Source of the DNA: a virus
Lineage: Duplodnaviria > Caudoviricetes
Virus record (IMG/VR): IMGVR_UViG_3300027819_000029
Coordinates: 1 to 38,975 of that record
Length of the DNA: 38,975 nucleotides
Reading direction: 5' to 3' (one strand)
A program made the translations under genes and the position numbers. Position 1 is the first letter of the stretch, and every line of letters starts with the position of its first letter. Below the pieces are notes generated by a model, which did not search any database, was not told where the DNA came from, and worked only from the letters and a program-made list of their open reading frames with translations. This document shows positions 541-38,110 of this stretch, piece by piece.

Positions 541-868
541 AAACTGGGGCGGTGCTCGTGGCGGCTCCGGCAGAAAGCCCATCTGCATATCCGACAAGGA
601 AAAGAAGAACCTCATCAAGGCCGCGAAGGAAGCGTCGAAGCGAACCGGGAAAACGGTGTGGGATATCCTGATGATGCACATTTACAACGGGAAGGACCAG
701 CCCCGCGTAAGCGTAGCCGCCATCAAGGTGTTTCAGGATGCCGTCATCGCCAAGCAGTCCCACGAGACGAAGGAGATTTATAACTATTCCCCGGCGATCC
801 TGCCGGTTCTTGAGGATGACCCGTCGAGGATCGATATGGCGAAGGCGGCACAGTCTCCGGTCCATTGA
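530..868 (+). CDS. terS: probable terminase small subunit
   Basis: Basic N-terminus 'WGGARGGSGRKP'; stop overlaps the TerL start (TGATG at 866-870); synteny. Confidence 0.6.
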   Translation: MPSKNWGGARGGSGRKPICISDKEKKNLIKAAKEASKRTGKTVWDILMMHIYNGKDQPRVSVAAIKVFQDAVIAKQSHETKEIYNYSPAILPVLEDDPSRIDMAKAAQSPVH

Positions 869-3324
869 TGTTGGCCGCGTGGAAGCCGCACGACGGCCCC
901 CAGACGGAGTTCCTTCGGCGGGGTGAGTTTGAGATTCTGTTCGGCGGGGCGGCTGGCCCCGGGAAGACCGATTGCTTGGTCATCGCCGCCACGCGGTACG
1001 TCAGCAACCCGAATTACAAGGCCCTGATCCTCCGCCGGACGTTTCCTCAGTTGGAAGAGATCATGGACCGTTGCCGGAAGTATTACCCACTGATCGACCC
1101 GGGCGCGTACTTCCTCGCCACAGAGAAGCGGTGGCATTTCTCGTCGGGCGCTACGATCAAGTTAGGCCATTGCCAGCACGAGGCCGACCGGTTCAACTAT
1201 CAGGGGCAGGATTACCATTTCATCGGATTCGATGAGGCGACACAGTTCACGGCGCTGATTTATCTGTACCTGTTCTCTCGGTGCCGGTCCACGGACCCCC
1301 GGATTCGCCCGATGGTGCGCTCCACGTCGAACCCGGGCGGCGAGGGCCACCAGTTCATCAAGGAGCGGTTCGGCATCGGTAACATTGAGCCTCGCACCAC
1401 GATGTACGAGGAGTCCGTTGACCCGATCACCGGCGAGGCGCTTCGACTGTCGCGGACGTTCATCCCGGCGACGTTGGAAGATAACCCGACGCTGCTGCTG
1501 AACGATCCGGATTATCTGGCGCGACTGGCGGCGCTGCCGACCATCGAGTATCTTCGGCTCCGCGAAGGCCGGTGGGATGCCTTTGAGGGTCAGGCGTTCC
1601 GGGAGTTGAACCGGCAGATTCACTCCATCCCGGCGTTCGACATCCCGCCGGAGTGGACCCGGTACCGGGCCTTCGACTGGGGCTACGCGAAGCCGTTTTC
1701 CGTCGGATGGTACGCCGTGGACTTCGATGGGAGGATCTACCGGTACCGGGCGTGGTACGGGTGCAAGCGGGACGAGCGCGGGAAGTTGCTCCCCGACCAA
1801 GGCATCAAGATGACCGCGACGGACATCGCCCGGGGCATCAAGGACCGGGAGCGCGGGGAGCGGATACAGGTCGGACCCGCCGGCCACGACATCTGGTCGC
1901 GTAGGCCGCAGAAGGACGGGTCTCTTGGCATCTCGGTGTTCGATGAGATGTGCGCGGAGGGCGTGGTCTGGATCAAGGCGGACAATGACCGGATGCTCGG
2001 GCGCCAGCAGTTCCACAAACGACTGGAAGTTGACGAGGATGGAAAGCCCGGCCTGTACATCTTCCAGACGCCGGAAAACGAGGATTCCTTCTGGCGCACG
2101 ATACCGATGTTGCGGGAGTACGAGCGCAACCCGGAGGAGATTGAGGAGAAGTGCGAGGACCATTGTTTCGTCGGAGAAACTGGAATAACGACGGACCTTG
2201 GCGTGAAGCCGATATCCTCCCTTGTCGGTGTAACCGGGAGGCTATGGACAGCCGGGAATCAATGGTCGGAGTTCCACGGTTGCCGGGAGACAAGGAAGTC
2301 TTCCCCGCTTGTTCGGGTTACGTTCGTTGACGGGCACGATGTTTTTTGTACTCCCGACCACCGGTTTCTCACCACAGACGGGAAGTGGACCGAAGCGAAA
2401 AACTTGACAGGCAGGGAGGTACATAGTGCAATATCTCATCTTGTCAATGGAGGTGAGATATGGAAGTCCTCGTCATCAGCCCCACGATTCAGGAGTTCCT
2501 CGGAATCAGGTATTACAAGTGCGGACCTTACTTCCAACGAAAAGGAGTTCGCTTACATCGGACCGTGTGGGAGCAGTCCAACGGGAGGCCGGTTCCTGCC
2601 GGATGGCACGTTCATCACTCCGATAAGGACAGGGCGAATAATCAACCCGGAAATCTTTCGCTCAAAGAGGACGGAGAGCACCTATCCGTTCACGGAAAGG
2701 CCAACGACCACACAAAGGCGATGTTGGCCGCACGGGAAGCGGCAAAAATATGGCACTCCAGCCCCGCAGGTCGAGAGTGGGCGAAACGAAACTTCGAAAA
2801 GAACGTTCGAGGAGAAATACAGCGAAGGGTTGAAAAGAAGTGCGAGCAATGCGGAGCGGATTACCCCGGGTTATTTCAATCAAGGTTCTGCTCTCCCGGA
2901 TGCAAAACAAAGTGGCGATACGCCGCAGGGCTTGATCGGGTCATCAGAGAGTGCATTGTTTGCGGAAAGAAATTCGAGGTCAATAAATATCTCGGGTCCA
3001 AGTCCTGCTCTCGTAAGTGCGCTGGCGTCAGGAGCGGGAACACGCGCCGTGGCCGTCCTCAGGGTAGAAGAGGCGGGGAGGGGTGACGTTTACTGCCTCT
3101 CGGTTGACGATCTTCATTCGTTCGCGCTTTCGAACGGAGTAATCGTACATAACTGCTACGAAGAGGTCCGCTACTTCTTGATGAGCCGCCCAATTAAGCC
3201 GAGGCACCGGGTAAAGCCGGACCTTAACTCGTTCCAAGCGGAGCGGCGGAAGTTGATAAAGGCGCGGGCATACGCTTCGCGCCATGGGGTCAGTCTTACT
3301 GACGCATACGGGAGGATCCGATAA
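868..3324 (+). CDS. terL: terminase large subunit precursor containing an intein (mature ~488 aa)
   Basis: 'PHDGPQTEF', Walker A 'GGAAGPGKT', Walker B 'FIGFDEATQF', motif III 'STSNPGG', nuclease 'AFDWGY'; removing the intein restores 'EDH|CYEEVRY'. ATG 868 preferred over TTG 865. Confidence 0.95.
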   Translation: MLAAWKPHDGPQTEFLRRGEFEILFGGAAGPGKTDCLVIAATRYVSNPNYKALILRRTFPQLEEIMDRCRKYYPLIDPGAYFLATEKRWHFSSGATIKLGHCQHEADRFNYQGQDYHFIGFDEATQFTALIYLYLFSRCRSTDPRIRPMVRSTSNPGGEGHQFIKERFGIGNIEPRTTMYEESVDPITGEALRLSRTFIPATLEDNPTLLLNDPDYLARLAALPTIEYLRLREGRWDAFEGQAFRELNRQIHSIPAFDIPPEWTRYRAFDWGYAKPFSVGWYAVDFDGRIYRYRAWYGCKRDERGKLLPDQGIKMTATDIARGIKDRERGERIQVGPAGHDIWSRRPQKDGSLGISVFDEMCAEGVVWIKADNDRMLGRQQFHKRLEVDEDGKPGLYIFQTPENEDSFWRTIPMLREYERNPEEIEEKCEDHCFVGETGITTDLGVKPISSLVGVTGRLWTAGNQWSEFHGCRETRKSSPLVRVTFVDGHDVFCTPDHRFLTTDGKWTEAKNLTGREVHSAISHLVNGGEIWKSSSSAPRFRSSSESGITSADLTSNEKEFAYIGPCGSSPTGGRFLPDGTFITPIRTGRIINPEIFRSKRTESTYPFTERPTTTQRRCWPHGKRQKYGTPAPQVESGRNETSKRTFEEKYSEGLKRSASNAERITPGYFNQGSALPDAKQSGDTPQGLIGSSESALFAERNSRSINISGPSPALVSALASGAGTRAVAVLRVEEAGRGDVYCLSVDDLHSFALSNGVIVHNCYEEVRYFLMSRPIKPRHRVKPDLNSFQAERRKLIKARAYASRHGVSLTDAYGRIR
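2164..3153 (+). mobile_element. intein (330 aa) in the TerL nuclease domain
   Basis: Starts with Cys 'CFVGETGITT' (block A), has 'VFCTPDHRFLT' (block B) and 'DVYCLSV', ends 'NGVIVHN' followed by a +1 Cys. Confidence 0.93.
2460..3086 (+). CDS. HNH homing endonuclease with C-terminal Cys-rich zinc-binding repeats, nested out of frame inside the intein
   Basis: 'RLHRTVWE...VP.GWHVHHSDKDRANNQPGNL' HNH motif; CxxC/FCSxxC repeats; SD GGAGGTG at 2449-2455 before ATG 2460; different frame from TerL. Confidence 0.85.
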   Translation: MEVLVISPTIQEFLGIRYYKCGPYFQRKGVRLHRTVWEQSNGRPVPAGWHVHHSDKDRANNQPGNLSLKEDGEHLSVHGKANDHTKAMLAAREAAKIWHSSPAGREWAKRNFEKNVRGEIQRRVEKKCEQCGADYPGLFQSRFCSPGCKTKWRYAAGLDRVIRECIVCGKKFEVNKYLGSKSCSRKCAGVRSGNTRRGRPQGRRGGEG

Positions 3325-5706: not shown

Positions 5707-6561
5707 ATGACAGACCTTGCGACGGCCCCTGCGGTCGGCGACGGGACGAGCCAAGGGACCGTGGCGGCAGCCACGATAACCCCGACGGCCCCCGTAACCG
5801 GCACGGAAGGACGAGCCAGCGTCACGGAAAGCGCCACGACACCGGCCCCCGCATCTTCGGGGACGAGTCAGGACGTGGATTTCACAGACGGTGTCAACCC
5901 CGAAACGCTACCACCGGAGATCCGCCCCTTGTGGGAGTCAACCCACAAGCAGATGAAAGCCGCGCTGACTCGCAAGTTTCAGGAGTTCGGCGCGGACCGG
6001 GATCTACTCACGCAGGCGAAGCAGTTCCTGCGTGATCCGATCACGGGGATGCAGCAGATGGCGGCCCAGCACGGCTACACGCTCACTCGCAGGGAAGCGG
6101 CTGCGGCAGTCGCGCAGCAGCAGGGGCAGCCCGCAGACCCCTGGCAGCCGGAGACCTACGAGGAAATCGTGGAGCGGGCCGCGGGCGAGGCGATGCGGAG
6201 GGCAGAGGAGAAGTTCGCCCCCCTGATCCAGAACGTCCAGCAGATGCAGGCCAAGAACATCGAGGCCCAGTTGGACGGCATCGACAAGGAATGGCGGAAA
6301 TACGAGCCGGAACTTCGAGAGATACTGGACAAGCATCCCAGTCTCATTGCGGATCTCCCAAGACTCTACAGGAACGCGGTACCCCCGGAAGTATTCGAGT
6401 CCCGGGCGGTACAGCACGCCCTGACGAGGATGAAGGAAACCGCATCGGCGGCGGCGGTATCGGGAAAAACAACCGTCTCACAGTCAACCCCGGCACCACG
6501 GAAAGCCACGAACTTCAACGAGGCGGTGTCAATCGCCAAGGAGAAGTTGGGGCTGAAATAA
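5707..6561 (+). CDS. capsid scaffolding protein
   Basis: SD AGGAGG; T/A/P-rich disordered N-terminus then helical region; lies between portal and major capsid gene. Confidence 0.7.
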   Translation: MTDLATAPAVGDGTSQGTVAAATITPTAPVTGTEGRASVTESATTPAPASSGTSQDVDFTDGVNPETLPPEIRPLWESTHKQMKAALTRKFQEFGADRDLLTQAKQFLRDPITGMQQMAAQHGYTLTRREAAAAVAQQQGQPADPWQPETYEEIVERAAGEAMRRAEEKFAPLIQNVQQMQAKNIEAQLDGIDKEWRKYEPELREILDKHPSLIADLPRLYRNAVPPEVFESRAVQHALTRMKETASAAAVSGKTTVSQSTPAPRKATNFNEAVSIAKEKLGLK

Positions 6562-6570
6562 GGAGGCAGC

Positions 6571-8525
6571 ATGGCAACCATCGGGGCGACCGCCCCCTCA
6601 CAGAACACGATCAACTACGACGCCCTGAACTGATCGGGGCTTTGGAGGTTTGCCTGTACCTGTTCTGGGCTTGTGCAGCCCACAGTGACATGCCCTGCAA
6701 AGGGTGACGCCGTTTGAGACTTCAAAGCGGAGTTCTCGGTTCTTGCTCCAAGGTTCAATGTGATGGGCAGTCAGATCGCGGCCGTTTGATCCGCATTTCT
6801 GGCATCTCCACCGATCACGCCTCAGGACAGCGAGGGACCATTCCTTGTGGCGAGTGCTGCTTCGCATAAGGCGGTTTTCGGAATTAATTCCGCCTTGCCA
6901 GTTCCAGTGATTAGGACCGGAATTGGCTTCGCTTGTTTTTCGTCTCCAATCGGCATCATGAACCGGATGCGATTTCCCCTTGTTATGAGGGACGTGGTTC
7001 TTCGTGAATCCTTGCTGATTCCCGAGACACTTACCCTTCCGGCTTTCGGAGATTTTCTTTTTCGTTTCTTCCGAATGCTTCTTTCCGGCAAAGGGGGCGA
7101 AATCTTTCCTTCCGGTCATCCAGTTCTTTAGTCGGCCCTCTGCATAGGCACGACGGACGGCATCGCCGATTAACTTCCTTGATTCTGGCGAATGCTTTGT
7201 TCCGGGTTTCATCGGCAAGTCTCCTTAGAAAACGGGCTTAATTCGGCGAAAATCTTACGATCCTGCTAACTACTACACTAACAGCGTACCGGCAGGGTGT
7301 CAAGTAGATAACGCCGAGCCAGCAGGAGGGATTACGAAAGGCCCTCCGGGCGCGTGTGACGGTCAGGGGTGAATAAATATAATCCCCATAAATAGCCCGG
7401 CCGAAAGGCGTGACATGACCTGAGCCTCCGGGAAACCGGAGGAAGCGGGAAATAGAAAGCCCGCGATAACAACACTGACTCAGTACCACGCTCGCGAACT
7501 ACCGCGAAACTATGGTCGACAACATCTTCAAATCCAACGGGTTCCTTGCCGCGCTGAAGTCTTACGGCGGCATCGAATACCAGGACGGCGGGGAGCGCAT
7601 CGCGCAACCGCTGATGTACGAGGACAACGGAACCGTCAAGTCGTACAGCGGTTACGATACCCTCGACACCACGCCGCAGGACGGCATGACCACGGCGTTC
7701 TTCCCGTGGTGCGAAGTGGCTGGCACCATCTCCATCTCCCGACTCGAAGAGCGCAAGAATAGCGGCGAGTCCGCGATCCTGAAGCTCCTCGAAAAGAAGA
7801 TCCTTCAGGCCGAGATGTCCCTGAAGGCGGCCATCAATTCCCAACTGGTCCTCGGCACGGTTTCCGGGGCGACCTTCGTTCCCGGCAACTCCGCGAAGGA
7901 TCTGTTCCCCCTGGGGTACTTCCTCCGGAAGCTCAACACTACCGACCCGACCACGGGCGGGAACGTCGGCAACATCGCGGGGGCGACGTACTCCTGGTGG
8001 AGGCACAAGACCGGCACGTTCGCGTCCGCGTCCGCCGACACGGGGAACTCGCTCGCCGTAGCGGTTACAACGTACAAGGGCATGAAGAACGGGTTGCACC
8101 GTCTGTACAACTGGTGCTCCAGGGGTGCCGACGGAACCGGCCCGAATATCATGCTTGCCGATCAGGTCAGCTACGAGACCTACGTCAACGCCATCCAGGA
8201 CCAGCGGCAGTACCAGGACGACAAGCTGGCCCAGATCGGCTTCGACAACATCAAGGTCCGGGCGGCTACGCTCATCTGGGACGAACTGGTCCCGGACATC
8301 TCGAACGGAACCGCCGCCATCACCCTGGGCTCCGTGTTCGCCCTGAACACGAAGTTCTACAAGCTGGTCATCGACTCGCAGACGGATTTCGTGACCACTC
8401 CGTTCATCGAGCCGGAGAACCAGACCGCGAAGACCGCGAAGATCCTCTTCATGGGGAACGCCACCGTTTCCAACATGCGGAAGCTCGGCGTGGCTTACGG
8501 AATCGCTCAGACCATCGCGTCGTAA
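6571..8525 (+). CDS. major capsid protein, spliced: join(6571..6626,7478..8525), 367 aa
   Basis: SD AAGGAGG + ATG 6571 gives MATIGATAPSQNTINYDAL then a stop; joining CT|A restores 'NYDALLSTTLANYRETMVDNIFKSN...'; the 7512 ATG has no SD; the body ('GGERI.QPL.Y', 'GFDNIKV') resembles HK97-fold capsids. Confidence 0.88.
6598..7212 (-). CDS. intron-encoded HNH endonuclease with NUMOD3 repeats (antisense to the intron)
   Basis: NUMOD3 'GKKHSEETKKKISES'; HNH 'VLRRDRWRCQKCG...LTAHHI.PW...NGVTLCRACH'; minus-strand SD AAGGAG (7221-7226) 8 nt from ATG 7212. Confidence 0.88.
   Translation of the reverse strand: MKPGTKHSPESRKLIGDAVRRAYAEGRLKNWMTGRKDFAPFAGKKHSEETKKKISESRKGKCLGNQQGFTKNHVPHNKGKSHPVHDADWRRKTSEANSGPNHWNWQGGINSENRLMRSSTRHKEWSLAVLRRDRWRCQKCGSNGRDLTAHHIEPWSKNRELRFEVSNGVTLCRACHCGLHKPRTGTGKPPKPRSVQGVVVDRVL
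6627..7477 (+). mobile_element. group I intron (851 nt) in the major capsid gene
   Basis: P1 GCCCU/GGGGC with U.G at the 5' splice site; P2 6644-6654/7214-7224; P3 CGGGCU/AGCCCG; P4 UUCGGCG/CGCCGAG; P7 ACGGUCA/UGACCU; P8 GCC-GAAA-GGC; P9 CCUCCGG-GAAA-CCGGAGG; terminal G 7477; splicing restores the frame. Confidence 0.9.
7275..7303 (-). promoter_or_regulatory. sigma70-type antisense promoter for the intron HNH, inside the ribozyme P5 region
   Basis: Minus strand TTGACA (7298-7303), 17 nt, TAGTGT (7275-7280) with extended -10 TG. Confidence 0.65.
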
Positions 8526-8600
8526 TTCAACCGTCAACCCCTCAACAACGCGGCGGGGAGTCGGGGCCTCGTGTCAGCCACAAAAAAGGGAGGTAGTGCA

Positions 8601-9985
8601 ATGTTGCTCCAGAGGATCAATTAGGTCCCTCTCCGTGTCGAGGACGGAGATGCAAACCGGGTGAATTCGGTGAACCCCGACCGGGAAACCGAGGGCAACG
8701 CCGAGCCAAGCCGGGGATACATCCCCGGAAGGTGTAGAGACTACCGGAGGGGTTCAGTCCCCTTAATAACCGGCCAGAGCGCCCGGGCCGAAAGGCATGA
8801 CATAGTCCACTCCCTTGGGTAACCAAGGAATCGAGTGCAATCGTTCAGACCCCGAGAAAATCTTCATCGTCGTGAAGAACACGTACTCAACCGCGTCACT
8901 CACCAACGGGCAGGCGGTGATCTGGGATTAGTCACATAGTCCCCCATCGTTTCTTCGGACCTAATTTAAGGGAGGACAGAACTTCAGGATGATTGGCGGG
9001 ATGATCCCTGCGACGGAGAACTTCCAGGTTCCCGATGGCATTATTCTGTTTGTTGCCGTCGATATGATGGACGATCTCGTAACGCCGCAGTTTCCTGCCA
9101 AGGTGCGTTTCCATGACGTGCCGATGTTCAAGCATACGCTTCCCGTTTACGGTGATTTCCCTGTAGCCCTGAGTGGAAATTCCCCCTTCTCCGTTGGCAC
9201 GTTTTTTACGGAAGAGGGGATCGCCGTAGCGGACCAGTCGCAGGTAGTGGGTATTGCACATCCCACGACCAGTGACTGGATTCTCGCAATCTTTAATGAC
9301 GCAGAGATTGGGAGAATCATGCTTGACAAATCGTCCTGTAGAATCCTTTTCCATTCGGTCCATGATTTATCCTCCTTGCTTGATAGTATGCCACAGACGA
9401 CAACGGAAGGCAAGAGGAACGATGGTGCAAACGGGGTGAACTCAGGGAAACCCGAACGGATAATGCCGAGGGCAATCCTGAGCCAAGCCGGGGATACATC
9501 CCCGGAAGGTGCAGAGACTACCGGAGGGGTTCAGTCCCCTTAATAACCGGCCAGAGCGCCCCGCTCGAAAGAGATGATATAGTCCGAGCCACCAGTAATG
9601 GTGGAACAACTTGTATGCCACGGACGCCGATGGCGTGGGAGTCACCAAGCCCACGGACACGGCAGCCGTGAAAGCCCTTCACAACGGGACCGCGTTCGCC
9701 GGTATCGCCGCGCAGACCATCGCGTCGGGCGCCTACGGGCTCATCCAGGTGTACGGGTACCACAGCGCGGTCCGCGTTCGCTCATGGACCGCCGGTGTCC
9801 CCGGCATCGCGGCGGGCACGGCTCTCGTTTGCGTGAGCGCCGTGTTCTGCCTGGAGAGCTACATCAACTACGCGCTGGCGACGAGTTCGCTGACGCAGGT
9901 CAACGTGAGGCACGCCGGGTTCGCGCTCGCGGCGCAGGCGTCCTGGACTACTAAGGCGATCGCGGTTTTTATAAAGGCTTTATAG
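8601..9985 (+). CDS. capsid decoration/cement-like protein, spliced: join(8601..8617,8838..8928,9614..9985), 159 aa
   Basis: SD GGGAGG + ATG 8601; joins AT|C and GAT|TAT give MLLQRINRSDPEKIFIVVKNTYSTASLTNGQAVIWDYATDADGVGVTKP...'AGIAAQTIASGAYGLIQVYG'; follows the capsid gene. Confidence 0.8.
8618..8837 (+). mobile_element. ORF-less mini group I intron (220 nt)
   Basis: P1 GGAU/GUCC; P2 UCUCCGU/ACGGAGA; P3 CCGGGUG/CGCCCGG; P4 UUCGGUG/CGCCGAG; P7 GAGACUA/UAGUCC; P8 GCC-GAAA-GGC; P9 CCUUGG-GUAA-CCAAGG; ends ...GAGUG at 8837. Confidence 0.9.
8703..8784 (+). repeat. 82-nt direct repeat of 9480..9561 (shared intron core)
   Basis: GAGCCAAGCCGGGGATACATCCCCGGAAGGTG(T/C)AGAGACTACC...CCAGAGCGCCC, one mismatch. 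Confidence 0.95.
8932..9363 (-). CDS. intron-encoded HNH endonuclease (antisense)
   Basis: N-terminal 'C...C...GMCNTHY' zinc motif; 'EHRHVME..LGRKL...EIVHHIDGNKQNN.IGNL'; minus-strand SD AAGGAGG at 9371-9377. Confidence 0.88.
   Translation of the reverse strand: MDRMEKDSTGRFVKHDSPNLCVIKDCENPVTGRGMCNTHYLRLVRYGDPLFRKKRANGEGGISTQGYREITVNGKRMLEHRHVMETHLGRKLRRYEIVHHIDGNKQNNAIGNLEVLRRRDHPANHPEVLSSLKLGPKKRWGTM
9385..9413 (-). promoter_or_regulatory. antisense promoter for the intron HNH
   Basis: Minus strand TTGCCT (9408-9413), 17 nt, CATACT (9385-9390) with extended -10 TG. Confidence 0.5.
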
Positions 9986-9987
9986 GC

Positions 9988-10050
9988 TTGACTTTATAAA
10001 AGCACCGCTGTATCCTGGGTGTGGATTCTAAATAATCCACACCCAGGAGG
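9988..10050 (+). promoter_or_regulatory. promoter plus RBS-sequestering hairpin for the free-standing HNH
   Basis: TTGACT (9988-9993), 17 nt, TATCCT (10011-10016); perfect 15-bp inverted repeat 10013-10027/10034-10048 overlapping SD AGGAGG (10045-10050). Confidence 0.7.
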
Positions 10051-10057
10051 TTTTTAA

Positions 10058-10648
10058 ATGACGAAGAGCGAAGAAGAAAAACGAAAGCACGCAGAATGGC
10101 ACCGGGAGTGGAGGAAAAAAAATCCAGAAAAAGCCCACGGATCTCCGGAATGGAGAAAACTTCATCCGGAAAAGGCAAGGGAAATTGATAGACGTAAGCG
10201 TGAGTTATATCGAGAAAAACGGTTAGAATACGCAAGGAAATACAACAAACCGTATTACGAAAAGAACAGGTCCGTAATTAGAGAAAAACAAAGCGATTAT
10301 TATAAAGAAAACGCGGAGGTAATAAAGGGTAAGGTTAGCGAGTATTATAAGAGAAACGAAATAAATATAAAAGAAAAGCGAAAAACATCCAGGATGGAAT
10401 TAATGGCATGGATGCAGGGAATTAAACAGCAATTAAATTGCTGTAAATGTCCAGAAAATCACCCATCCTGTTTAGAGTTCCATCACTTAGATCCAGAGAC
10501 AAAAGAGTATGCTGTTGGTAGGATGTTTAGCCTTAGCCTATCGTCAGAAAAATTGAAACAAATGATCTTGGAAGAGATGGGTAAATGTATAGTGCTTTGT
10601 TCAAATTGTCATAAAAAAGAACACCACAAAACAATCGGTTGTCCTTAG
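10058..10648 (+). CDS. free-standing HNH endonuclease
   Basis: AT-rich; long K/E/R/Y helical N-terminus; 'CCKCPENHPSCLEFHHLDP...KCIVLCSNCHKKEH'. Confidence 0.85.
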   Translation: MTKSEEEKRKHAEWHREWRKKNPEKAHGSPEWRKLHPEKAREIDRRKRELYREKRLEYARKYNKPYYEKNRSVIREKQSDYYKENAEVIKGKVSEYYKRNEINIKEKRKTSRMELMAWMQGIKQQLNCCKCPENHPSCLEFHHLDPETKEYAVGRMFSLSLSSEKLKQMILEEMGKCIVLCSNCHKKEHHKTIGCP

Positions 10649-31405: not shown

Positions 31406-32023
31406 CTATAACAACAACGGTTGTGCCGTAATTTCCTTACTTGCATCATATCGTTCCGTGTTACCCTTTGGATATGTTTGGGTTGGATAGTTCAATGAAG
31501 ACAACATATCCTTTATTTCTCTATGGCTACCAATGAAATATACGTATCGGTGCTTTGATGTCCTTGGTTGCCTAATTGATTTGTCTCCGCCGTGATGCCT
31601 TGCGTGTTTTCCTTCACCGGAATAAATGTCCGTCCTTTCCTTCGTGCACCCGGTATAAAGCCAATTGGTTGCTTGGTATATGTACCCGATGTGCCCTTTC
31701 CCTACATCTGCATAACTAACTATAATCCTTGGTCTATCCAACTGCTTCAGGCTGGATGACACCAATACGCTCGCCCTGTTATTCCCTCCGTCTTCTATGC
31801 AAACCCTGTTTAATTCAAGAACTATTTTGGCATATTTTTTACCGCATATCCCGGAGCAAAGATATGGGGATGCGGGCACTCCGTAGGTGGCTATGCCCAC
31901 CAACATATTTCCTTCGTACAATCCAAACGCATCTGTAATGCATGGCAATCTCTTGGCGTAATGTCTTTCCAATATCCAAGGATAAGTCACCTCTGAGGAT
32001 ACTCTGTAAACATTGGATTTCAT
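31406..32023 (-). CDS. Mom-like (GNAT-fold) DNA adenine modification protein
   Basis: 'I...HY...FGL...G...YG.P...ELNR...IVSYAD...H.G.IYQATNWLYTG...KHRY' signature; low GC. Confidence 0.7.
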   Translation of the reverse strand: MKSNVYRVSSEVTYPWILERHYAKRLPCITDAFGLYEGNMLVGIATYGVPASPYLCSGICGKKYAKIVLELNRVCIEDGGNNRASVLVSSSLKQLDRPRIIVSYADVGKGHIGYIYQATNWLYTGCTKERTDIYSGEGKHARHHGGDKSIRQPRTSKHRYVYFIGSHREIKDMLSSLNYPTQTYPKGNTERYDASKEITAQPLLL

Positions 32024-37047: not shown

Positions 37048-37259
37048 TGCCCCGGCGCCTCGGCTCCCCGATCACGGATCCTCACGGTGTCTCCATCGAA
37101 GTCACCTGCCGGGGCAGCAGCAAGCGCGTTTCCTTGCGGTCGTGGAATCGATACGACGGCACCCTTGCCCATCATTTCACGCTGGCAGAATTCGCGCACG
37201 CCCTCGGGCTGACGATACCGCCGCGCTCCACGAAGAAGCGGGGGAGGAACAGGGTATGA
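37047..37259 (+). CDS. hypothetical protein
   Basis: Coupled at both ends. Confidence 0.5.
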   Translation: MPRRLGSPITDPHGVSIEVTCRGSSKRVSLRSWNRYDGTLAHHFTLAEFAHALGLTIPPRSTKKRGRNRV

Positions 37260-38110
37260 GGTGCCCGCTCGCCATAGATCTGTACTGTGGCCTTGGCGGC
37301 TGGACCGAGGGGCTGCTGGCAGAAGGGTATCGGGTGATCGGTTTTGATATTGAGCGACACGTTTACGGCGACCATCGATACCCGGCGCAACTTGTCATCC
37401 AGGACGTGACGACACTGCATGGGGCGCGGTTCAAGCGGGCGGCGCTGATTGTCGCCAGTCCTCCATGCCAGGCATATTCCTATAGGGCGATGCCATGGAG
37501 TCGCGCCAAGGCCCTGCCCCCGCCCGACAACGCATTATTCGACGCCTGCTTTCGGATACAAAGGGAAGCCTCCGCGGCGGCGGGACGCCATATACCGATG
37601 GTGGTCGAGAACGTCAGAGGAGCACAGAAATGGGTCGGTAAAGCGGCTTGGAATTTCGGTTCCTTTTATCTGTGGGGAGACGTCCCTGCGCTGATGCCAA
37701 TGACAAGAGTATACAAATCGCAGGGGATGAATTGGTCGGACCGGAGCAAGCGCGGGCAGGACTTTACCAGAATCGCAGGGGAACACGCGAAGAAACTGAG
37801 CGGATTCAGGTTTGATGGGAGCGGAAGGTCATTCCAGTCGGCTTGCGTTGACCACATAAAGGGTACCCCGCATCGCCCGAAAGGGCATTGGACGAATCCC
37901 GAGGAAAACGGGACGAAGCAGGGCGGCGATTGGTTTAATAATTCGCAGCCGTCAATTTCGCGATTGACCGGATCAAAAAGCCCCGCCCGCAAGGCCGCCT
38001 CTGCGATGATCGCCAAAATACCCCTCATATTGTCTCGGCATATCGCGCAGTGCTGGAGGCCGAAGACGGACGAGATCATCGGCAGGGCCATCATGGAGGC
38101 CACCGTATGA
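37256..38110 (+). CDS. DNA (cytosine-5) methyltransferase-like protein
   Basis: Motif I 'IDLYCGLGG', motif IV 'SPPCQAYS', motif VI 'VVENV'. Confidence 0.8.
   Translation: MRCPLAIDLYCGLGGWTEGLLAEGYRVIGFDIERHVYGDHRYPAQLVIQDVTTLHGARFKRAALIVASPPCQAYSYRAMPWSRAKALPPPDNALFDACFRIQREASAAAGRHIPMVVENVRGAQKWVGKAAWNFGSFYLWGDVPALMPMTRVYKSQGMNWSDRSKRGQDFTRIAGEHAKKLSGFRFDGSGRSFQSACVDHIKGTPHRPKGHWTNPEENGTKQGGDWFNNSQPSISRLTGSKSPARKAASAMIAKIPLILSRHIAQCWRPKTDEIIGRAIMEATV

What the first reader, a model, noticed from the sequence alone, without database searches (positions are those of the whole stretch)
6571..8525. Major capsid gene split by a cryptic group I intron
Seen: a strong SD starts a 20-codon ORF that stops, and the capsid body at 7512 has no SD. 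Removing 6627..7477 (after the U of a P1 U.G pair, ending in G) fuses them in frame into a 367-aa protein. P1-P9 can be paired, and loop ACUGA can pair with exon-2 UCAGU (P10). P7 is a variant (ACGGUCA/UGACCU) that fits the known covariation of a bulged C with a G-C pair at the guanosine-binding site. Known: most characterised phage group I introns lie in DNA-metabolism genes. Inference: the most abundant virion protein depends on ribozyme splicing, and ORF callers will truncate it.
Basis: partly seen in the sequence, partly recalled or inferred. Interest (0 to 1): 0.8.

Follow-up and report, generated by a model that had tools for sequence, protein, structure and literature searches.

The report
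Capsid intron with rewired catalytic core
An 851-base intron of the self-splicing (group I) type interrupts this uncultured phage's major capsid gene, so capsid production likely depends on RNA splicing; capsid introns are already known, but this one belongs to a phage intron lineage with an altered catalytic helix that turned up only in virion and packaging genes.

Summary
Confirmed. Removing 6627-7477 gives a 367-aa capsid protein, matching uninterrupted homologues residue for residue at the junction. A public contig joins 6626 to 7478 exactly, most likely an intron-less allele. The group I core covaries across 15 relatives, and three other phages carry the intron at the same site with re-paired P1. 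Splicing was not observed. The layout is published: mycobacteriophage LittleE has a spliced capsid intron with a bottom-strand endonuclease (PMC3706429). This scan also noted it repeatedly on other DNA. The new part is the P7 variant. It is rare (71 versus about 5,800 viral stretches) and mostly missed by Rfam. All 30 assigned hosts are virion or packaging genes, versus 16 of 39 for canonical introns. New variant of a known kind; moderate interest.

The parts
6561..6567 (+). Shine-Dalgarno-like AAGGAGG of the capsid gene, overlapping the stop of the upstream 284-aa ORF (likely scaffold)
   Evidence: sequence
6571..6626 (+). Capsid exon 1 (18 codons + 2 nt), ending in the U of the P1 U.G pair
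6627..7477 (+). Group I intron I1, 851 nt, ending in omega-G 7477
   Evidence: (joint 6626->7478)
6622..6640 (+). P1 with internal guide; its loop 6629-6633 pairs with exon 2 7480-7484 (P10)
   Evidence: re-paired in L248, L307, L326
6644..7224 (+). P2 helix (6644-6654 with 7214-7224) whose loop L2 holds most of the endonuclease gene
   Evidence: short HEG-less P2 in L307
6598..7212 (-). Antisense NUMOD3 + HNH endonuclease ORF, 204 aa, SD AAGGAG 8 nt upstream; runs through P2 and P1 and stops inside exon 1
   Evidence: 64% identical to the L248 intron ORF
7275..7303 (-). Candidate sigma-70 promoter for the endonuclease inside the P5 extension (TTGACA, 17 nt, TAGTGT; 9 of 12)
   Evidence: not called by the scanner here; 12 of 12 at the same place in L248
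7233..7421 (+). Catalytic core P3-P8; variant P7 7359-7365/7416-7421 with G264-C311 equivalent (7361/7420) kept and G at position 261 (7358)
7425..7464 (+). P9 and P9.1 hairpins
7478..8525 (+). Capsid exon 2; major head protein family phrog_9953
8618..8837 (+). Intron I2 (220 nt, no ORF, canonical P7) in the next gene
8929..9613 (+). Intron I3 (685 nt, canonical P7) in the next gene, with an antisense HNH ORF 9363..8932

Best explanation
An 851-nt group I intron interrupts the major capsid gene after nucleotide 6626 and is predicted to splice itself out of the mRNA, restoring the 367-aa capsid protein, while an HNH endonuclease gene on its opposite strand likely spreads it to intron-less alleles. 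Shown: the boundaries, the reading frame, the conserved and covarying fold, the intact endonuclease ORF, and alleles with and without the intron. Inferred from group I chemistry: a free guanosine bound at the G264-C311 pair of P7 attacks the U.G site in P1; P10 then aligns exon 2 and omega-G 7477 for ligation. The P7 variant is likely a functional core in which the A261-A265-U310 base triple has become G261-G265-C310. Inferred for mobility: a host-type promoter in the P5 extension transcribes the endonuclease backwards, independently of capsid transcription, and the enzyme cuts or nicks intron-less capsid genes so that repair copies the intron. Relatives at this site show full, shortened, remnant and absent endonuclease genes, as expected of a homing life cycle.
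For: Join gives 367 aa; P0002 and P0003 are 367 aa and P0003 matches the junction; 110 of 120 homologues are 362-376 aa. 61 of 88 capsid loci run uninterrupted across the site, 2 carry the intron, 25 do not reach it (the sets overlap). Contig 26 of run X9 joins 6626 to 7478 with 147 nt on the short side and 1 difference in all. 96.9% of 675 cells paired, 27 of 45 pairs with two-sided changes, 0 of 500 shuffles, slid controls 30-41%. P1 differs but stays paired in L248, L307, L326. RF00028 recognises 5 of 20 more distant variant-P7 cores at E<0.01. HNH and NUMOD3 exceed Pfam cut-offs. G261 in 45 of 56 variant cores, A in 138 of 139 canonical ones; the Tetrahymena triple is in PMC10020454 (passages). 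LittleE precedent with RT-PCR (PMC3706429, passages).
Against: No spliced RNA: the one RNA-labelled run held only a diverged intron-less relative. RF00028 gives no hit on this intron. P7 is invariant in the alignment and was part of the search pattern, so one search does not test it. The structure was derived from the window sequence, which favours it over slid controls. The promoter's second hexamer has only 3 of 6 matches and was not called. P10 needs a bulged base at exon 2 position +2. Endonuclease activity and target are untested. The record is about 47% complete, so a second capsid gene cannot be excluded; none was found.
Confidence: 0.9

Rival explanations
1. The intron is real but needs a protein helper (its own ORF product or a host factor) and does not self-splice alone.
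For: Altered P7 and G261 depart from the consensus; RF00028 misses it. Protein-assisted group I splicing is general knowledge (recalled).
Against: ORF-less members exist at the same site (L307, 279 nt), so the ORF is dispensable; the G264-C311 pair is kept and peripheral helices covary.
Confidence: 0.12
2. No splicing is needed: capsid is made from ATG 7512 as a 337-aa protein, perhaps from a plus-strand promoter-like site at 7356-7383.
For: Open 337-aa ORF; promoter-like match 10 of 12; 2 of 120 homologue records begin at that Met.
Against: No SD at 7512; 110 of 120 homologues keep the N-terminal arm; exon 1 is 100% identical to an intron-less homologue; P1 and P10 track the exon sequence in relatives; the promoter-like letters are conserved ribozyme core; two other short records are mis-calls of intron-bearing genes.
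Confidence: 0.04
3. The insertion has inactivated the gene (dead intron, defective phage) or is an assembly artefact.
For: No RNA evidence; partial genome.
Against: Identical in a longer independent contig (L220, 0 differences over 7,044 nt); one 3,028-nt contig of run X3 spans 6200-8732; intact pairings and ORFs; the same intron in three divergent phages.
Confidence: 0.03
4. The element is excised from DNA rather than RNA, and the X9 joint is that product.
For: The exact joint was seen in a run guessed to be DNA.
Against: No recombinase, no terminal repeats (ends GA..TG); full ribozyme fold; X9 lacks cover over most of the intron, which fits an intron-less strain.
Confidence: 0.01

Closest known systems
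Mycobacteriophage LittleE major capsid gene intron (Pope et al. 2013, PMC3706429; passages and outline read; record JF937101)
   Same: Intron of about 820-850 nt in the major capsid gene, U at the end of exon 1, terminal G, endonuclease gene on the bottom strand; splicing shown there by RT-PCR and protein sequencing.
   Different: LittleE has a canonical P7 and its ORF lies downstream of the core; here the ORF is a NUMOD3-HNH in loop L2, overlaps P1 and exon 1, and P7 is the variant. Different capsid family.
Group I introns in crAss-like phage MCP genes (Yutin et al. 2021, PMC7886860; passages)
   Same: Capsid genes split by group I introns, with an intein in the terminase, as in this window. 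Some variant-P7 hits are in crAss-type capsids.
   Different: The passages read give no structure or subgroup; this phage's capsid is of the Myxococcus phage Mx8 type.
Rfam RF00028 / Tetrahymena group I core (PMC10020454; passages)
   Same: P3-P7 pseudoknot, P4-P6 domain, bulged P7 with G264-C311, J8/7.
   Different: Three P7 pairs differ (G-C, U-A, C-G for A-U, C-G, U-A), G replaces A261, and the model does not score this intron.
Subgroup IA2 phage introns (as defined in PMC3428280; passages; diversity discussed in PMC11878797; passages)
   Same: Phage intron with an HNH gene and an extra hairpin between P7 and P3.
   Different: One hairpin here, whereas IA2 has P7.1 and P7.2 linked by G-U-A.

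Membership tests
Group I intron | U.G pair at the 5' splice site in P1 | tested here: met
   kept in L248, L307, L326
Group I intron | Terminal omega-G and precise exon join | tested here: met
   G7477; joint 6626->7478
Group I intron | Core helices P3, P4, P6, P8 in canonical order with covariation | tested here: met
   27 of 45 pairs with two-sided changes; P3 5 of 6 pairs
Group I intron | P7 with bulge and G264-C311 guanosine site | tested here: met
   pairing is complete, but P7 was fixed by the search pattern so its covariation within the family is not tested
Group I intron | Score above the RF00028 gathering cut-off | tested here: not met
   no hit at E<=5; 2 of 20 more distant variant cores pass. 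PMC11878797 calls the model incomplete
Group I intron | Guanosine-dependent self-splicing | not testable with these tools
   no spliced RNA in the runs laid
Subgroup IA2 | P7.1 and P7.2 linked by G-U-A | tested here: not met
   single hairpin 7366-7387; some distant variant-P7 introns have two
GISSD subgroups (IA1, IA3, IB, IC, ID, IE) | Best match to a subgroup covariance model | not testable with these tools
   GISSD models are not held here
HNH homing endonuclease | HNH domain with DNA-binding NUMOD3 motif | tested here: met
   PF01844 35.6 bits (cut-off 21.4), PF07460 37.6 (20.4)
HNH homing endonuclease | Cleaves the intron-less allele near the insertion site | not testable with these tools
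   intron-less alleles exist; activity untested
Phage major capsid protein | Homology to annotated major head proteins | tested here: met
   phrog_9953 E 1.8e-39; Mx8 major virion protein 28.6%, E 1e-21; no Pfam or PDB sequence match

The most novel reading that the evidence does not exclude
The intron is the type member of an undescribed group I subgroup whose guanosine-binding sandwich uses a G-G-C triple in place of the near-universal A-A-U, and which has specialised on late virion genes, having colonised at least seven unrelated major-capsid families and terminases while avoiding DNA-metabolism genes.
Probability: 0.35. Interest if true: 0.6.

Novelty: new variant of a known kind. Interest (0 to 1): 0.4.

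Why it matters
The capsid intron itself adds an example to a published phenomenon and warns that gene callers truncate such capsids. The variant core offers a natural compensatory test of a base triple next to the guanosine site of group I ribozymes. Its restriction to virion and packaging genes makes a standing question testable: what decides which host genes an intron lineage invades. It also shows a class of phage introns that the standard Rfam model mostly misses.

Tried and rejected
Rfam on the window: no hit for I1. A covariance model of the family was not built (alignment too long to calibrate), so family counts rest on exact patterns, which miss members with long inserts or changed letters. 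The first pattern scan was mostly noise (about 23 of 120 hits intron-like); tighter patterns were used. Endonuclease homologue scan gave only distant HNH proteins. Blastn of the core against 50,697 named phage records found no relative; three named introns reached through distant members lacked this P7: two canonical, ICP1 another variant. L359 was a chance pattern hit with no match. RNA-labelled runs X18-X20 had small shares and no exact junction; X20 holds a diverged intron-less relative: no evidence either way on splicing. In genome contigs 5 of 16 hits were real, in MAG contigs of mixed taxonomy, so no host is assigned. PDB sequence search and ESM Atlas added little. My regex picked a wrong exon end for L326; its intron (358 nt) was read by hand. 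Literature searches that found no description of this P7 variant; figures, GISSD and supplements were not seen and could hold it.

Full report
Observation. The window is a linear viral record, about 47% complete, with terminase, portal and head genes in order. ATG 6571 follows AAGGAGG and opens 20 codons; the frame of the long ORF at 7512 is open back to 7479. Removing 6627-7477 gives one 367-aa ORF. The protein is a major head protein (phrog_9953), related to the Mx8 major virion protein.

The join is right. Of the 120 best homologues, 110 are 362-376 aa. P0002 (96% identical) and P0003 (90%) are 367 aa, and P0003 has the predicted junction letter for letter. Two of 120 start at the internal Met. 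Two other short records are mis-calls of intron-bearing genes (P0081 = L248, P0006 = L222). Of 88 capsid loci, 61 cross the site uninterrupted, 2 carry the intron (L220, an identical copy, and L248) and 25 do not reach it (viral and metagenome sets overlap). Relatives have other introns near codons 68 and 86 (L016, L222, L221). A contig of run X9, guessed to be DNA, joins 6626 to 7478 exactly; I read it as an intron-less allele. No spliced RNA was found.

The fold is group I. P1 ends in U.G; P3, P4, P5, P6a, P7, P7.1, P8, P9, P9.1 and P10 pair, as does an 11-bp P2. RF00028 misses it. An alignment of 15 cores gives 96.9% paired cells and 27 of 45 pairs with two-sided changes, against 30-41% paired for slid controls. 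Caveats: related sequences can beat shuffles, the structure came from the window, and P7 was fixed by the search pattern. Three other phages hold the intron at the same capsid site, in capsids 55-67% identical to each other or to ours: L248 (753 nt), L326 (358 nt, read by hand) and L307 (279 nt). P1 stays paired with different exon letters.

Loop L2 holds a minus-strand 204-aa NUMOD3-HNH ORF, 7212..6598, with an SD; it runs through P1 and stops in exon 1. L248 has the same ORF (64% identical), L326 a remnant, L307 none. A TTGACA-17-TAGTGT site lies on the minus strand in the P5 extension (9 of 12; not called by the scanner); L248 has a 12 of 12 site at the same distance. Among 30 loci scanned, such a site was printed only for the window, L248 and L306, all three with an antisense HNH ORF. 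The next gene carries two canonical introns, 8618-8837 and 8929-9613, both with exact intron-less joints in public contigs; the second also has an antisense HNH ORF.

The P7 variant. The same pattern form found 71 stretches with the variant P7 in the whole viral collection and an estimated 5,800 with the canonical C-bulge P7 (from 2 of 64 parts). The base before P7 (position 261) is G in 45 of 56 distinct variant cores, unfiltered and including chance hits, and A in 138 of 139 canonical cores. The Tetrahymena structure has an A261-A265-U310 triple under the guanosine (PMC10020454, passages), so a G261-G265-C310 triple is the likely counterpart. This is inference; a minority of true members keep A261, and shared ancestry can produce such a correlation. 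RF00028 missed 20 of 20 variant cores at its cut-off in one set and found 5 of 20 at E<0.01, 2 above cut-off, in a partly overlapping set.

Host genes. For the close subfamily, 27 of 28 hits were real: 21 major capsid genes, 5 in a small gene just before a capsid gene, 1 unresolved. For the wider class I kept 46 distinct cores of 71 hits and sent ORFs from 42; 30 got a host family: 24 major capsid (7 PHROG families), 4 large terminase, 1 tape measure, 1 virion protein, none in DNA metabolism. Three more are followed by TnpB-like ORFs. For the control I kept 64 of the first 80 canonical loci; 39 got a host: 21 DNA or RNA metabolism, 8 major capsid, 8 other virion or packaging, 2 lysis. Fisher P is about 4e-7, but tallies are by hand, unassigned loci were dropped, E-value cut-offs differed (1e-4 and 1e-8) and loci are not independent.

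Mechanism. Most likely the capsid mRNA self-splices by the standard two-step guanosine pathway (0.9 for a functional intron). The backward endonuclease, on its own host-type promoter, likely drives homing before or apart from late transcription. Its transcript must overlap P1 and exon 1, so antisense interference with splicing is possible but untested.

Comparison with what is known. LittleE has a capsid intron with a bottom-strand endonuclease and proven splicing; the same paper cites a capsid intron in Tuc2009 (PMC3706429, passages). Its P7 is canonical. crAss-like phages typically have MCP introns (PMC7886860, passages). PMC11878797 (passages) says phage intron diversity exceeds current subgroups and the Rfam model is incomplete. 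PMC6125680, PMC2988022 and PMC3428280 were seen as passages only. Earlier notes of this scan report capsid introns, antisense self-promoted HNH genes and variant P7 helices in other genomes; they are unchecked and not counted as support. I found no paper describing this P7 variant, but GISSD, figures and supplements were not seen.

Verdict. Real and correctly placed. As a capsid intron it is ordinary; as a member of a rare, virion-gene-restricted lineage with a likely swapped base triple it is a new variant of a known kind. Interest 0.4.

Noticed in passing
window 8601-9985: The gene after the capsid (159 aa once joined; no family hit) is split by two canonical group I introns, 8618-8837 and 8929-9613; intron-less homologues exist (L222, L223). 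The second intron has an antisense HNH ORF with SD and a promoter-like site.
   Followed up: partly
window 865-3324: Large terminase contains an intein (PF14890).
   Followed up: no
window 10058-10648: Free-standing AT-rich HNH endonuclease ORF after a terminator-like hairpin at 10013-10048.
   Followed up: no
L221 1017-1680, L222 2302-3000, L016 2080-2707: Close relatives carry other group I introns in the same capsid gene near codons 86 and 68; the gene is a multi-site intron target.
   Followed up: partly
L221 and L222 at the I1 site: Intron-less close relatives are heavily recoded around the I1 insertion site, which could reflect escape from the endonuclease.
   Followed up: no
L340, L386, L398: Variant-P7 intron cores directly followed by TnpB/IS605-like ORFs, an IStron-like arrangement.
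   Followed up: no
L543 (Vibrio phage ICP1 record) 1645-1750: Group I-like core with yet another P7 variant beside an HNH gene in the tape-measure region.
   Followed up: no
window 7356-7383: Plus-strand promoter-like match (10 of 12) overlapping P7 and P7.1, conserved in the subfamily as ribozyme sequence.
   Followed up: no
window 31406-32023 and 37142-38110: Mom-family protein and a C-5 cytosine methylase: likely DNA modification genes.
   Followed up: no
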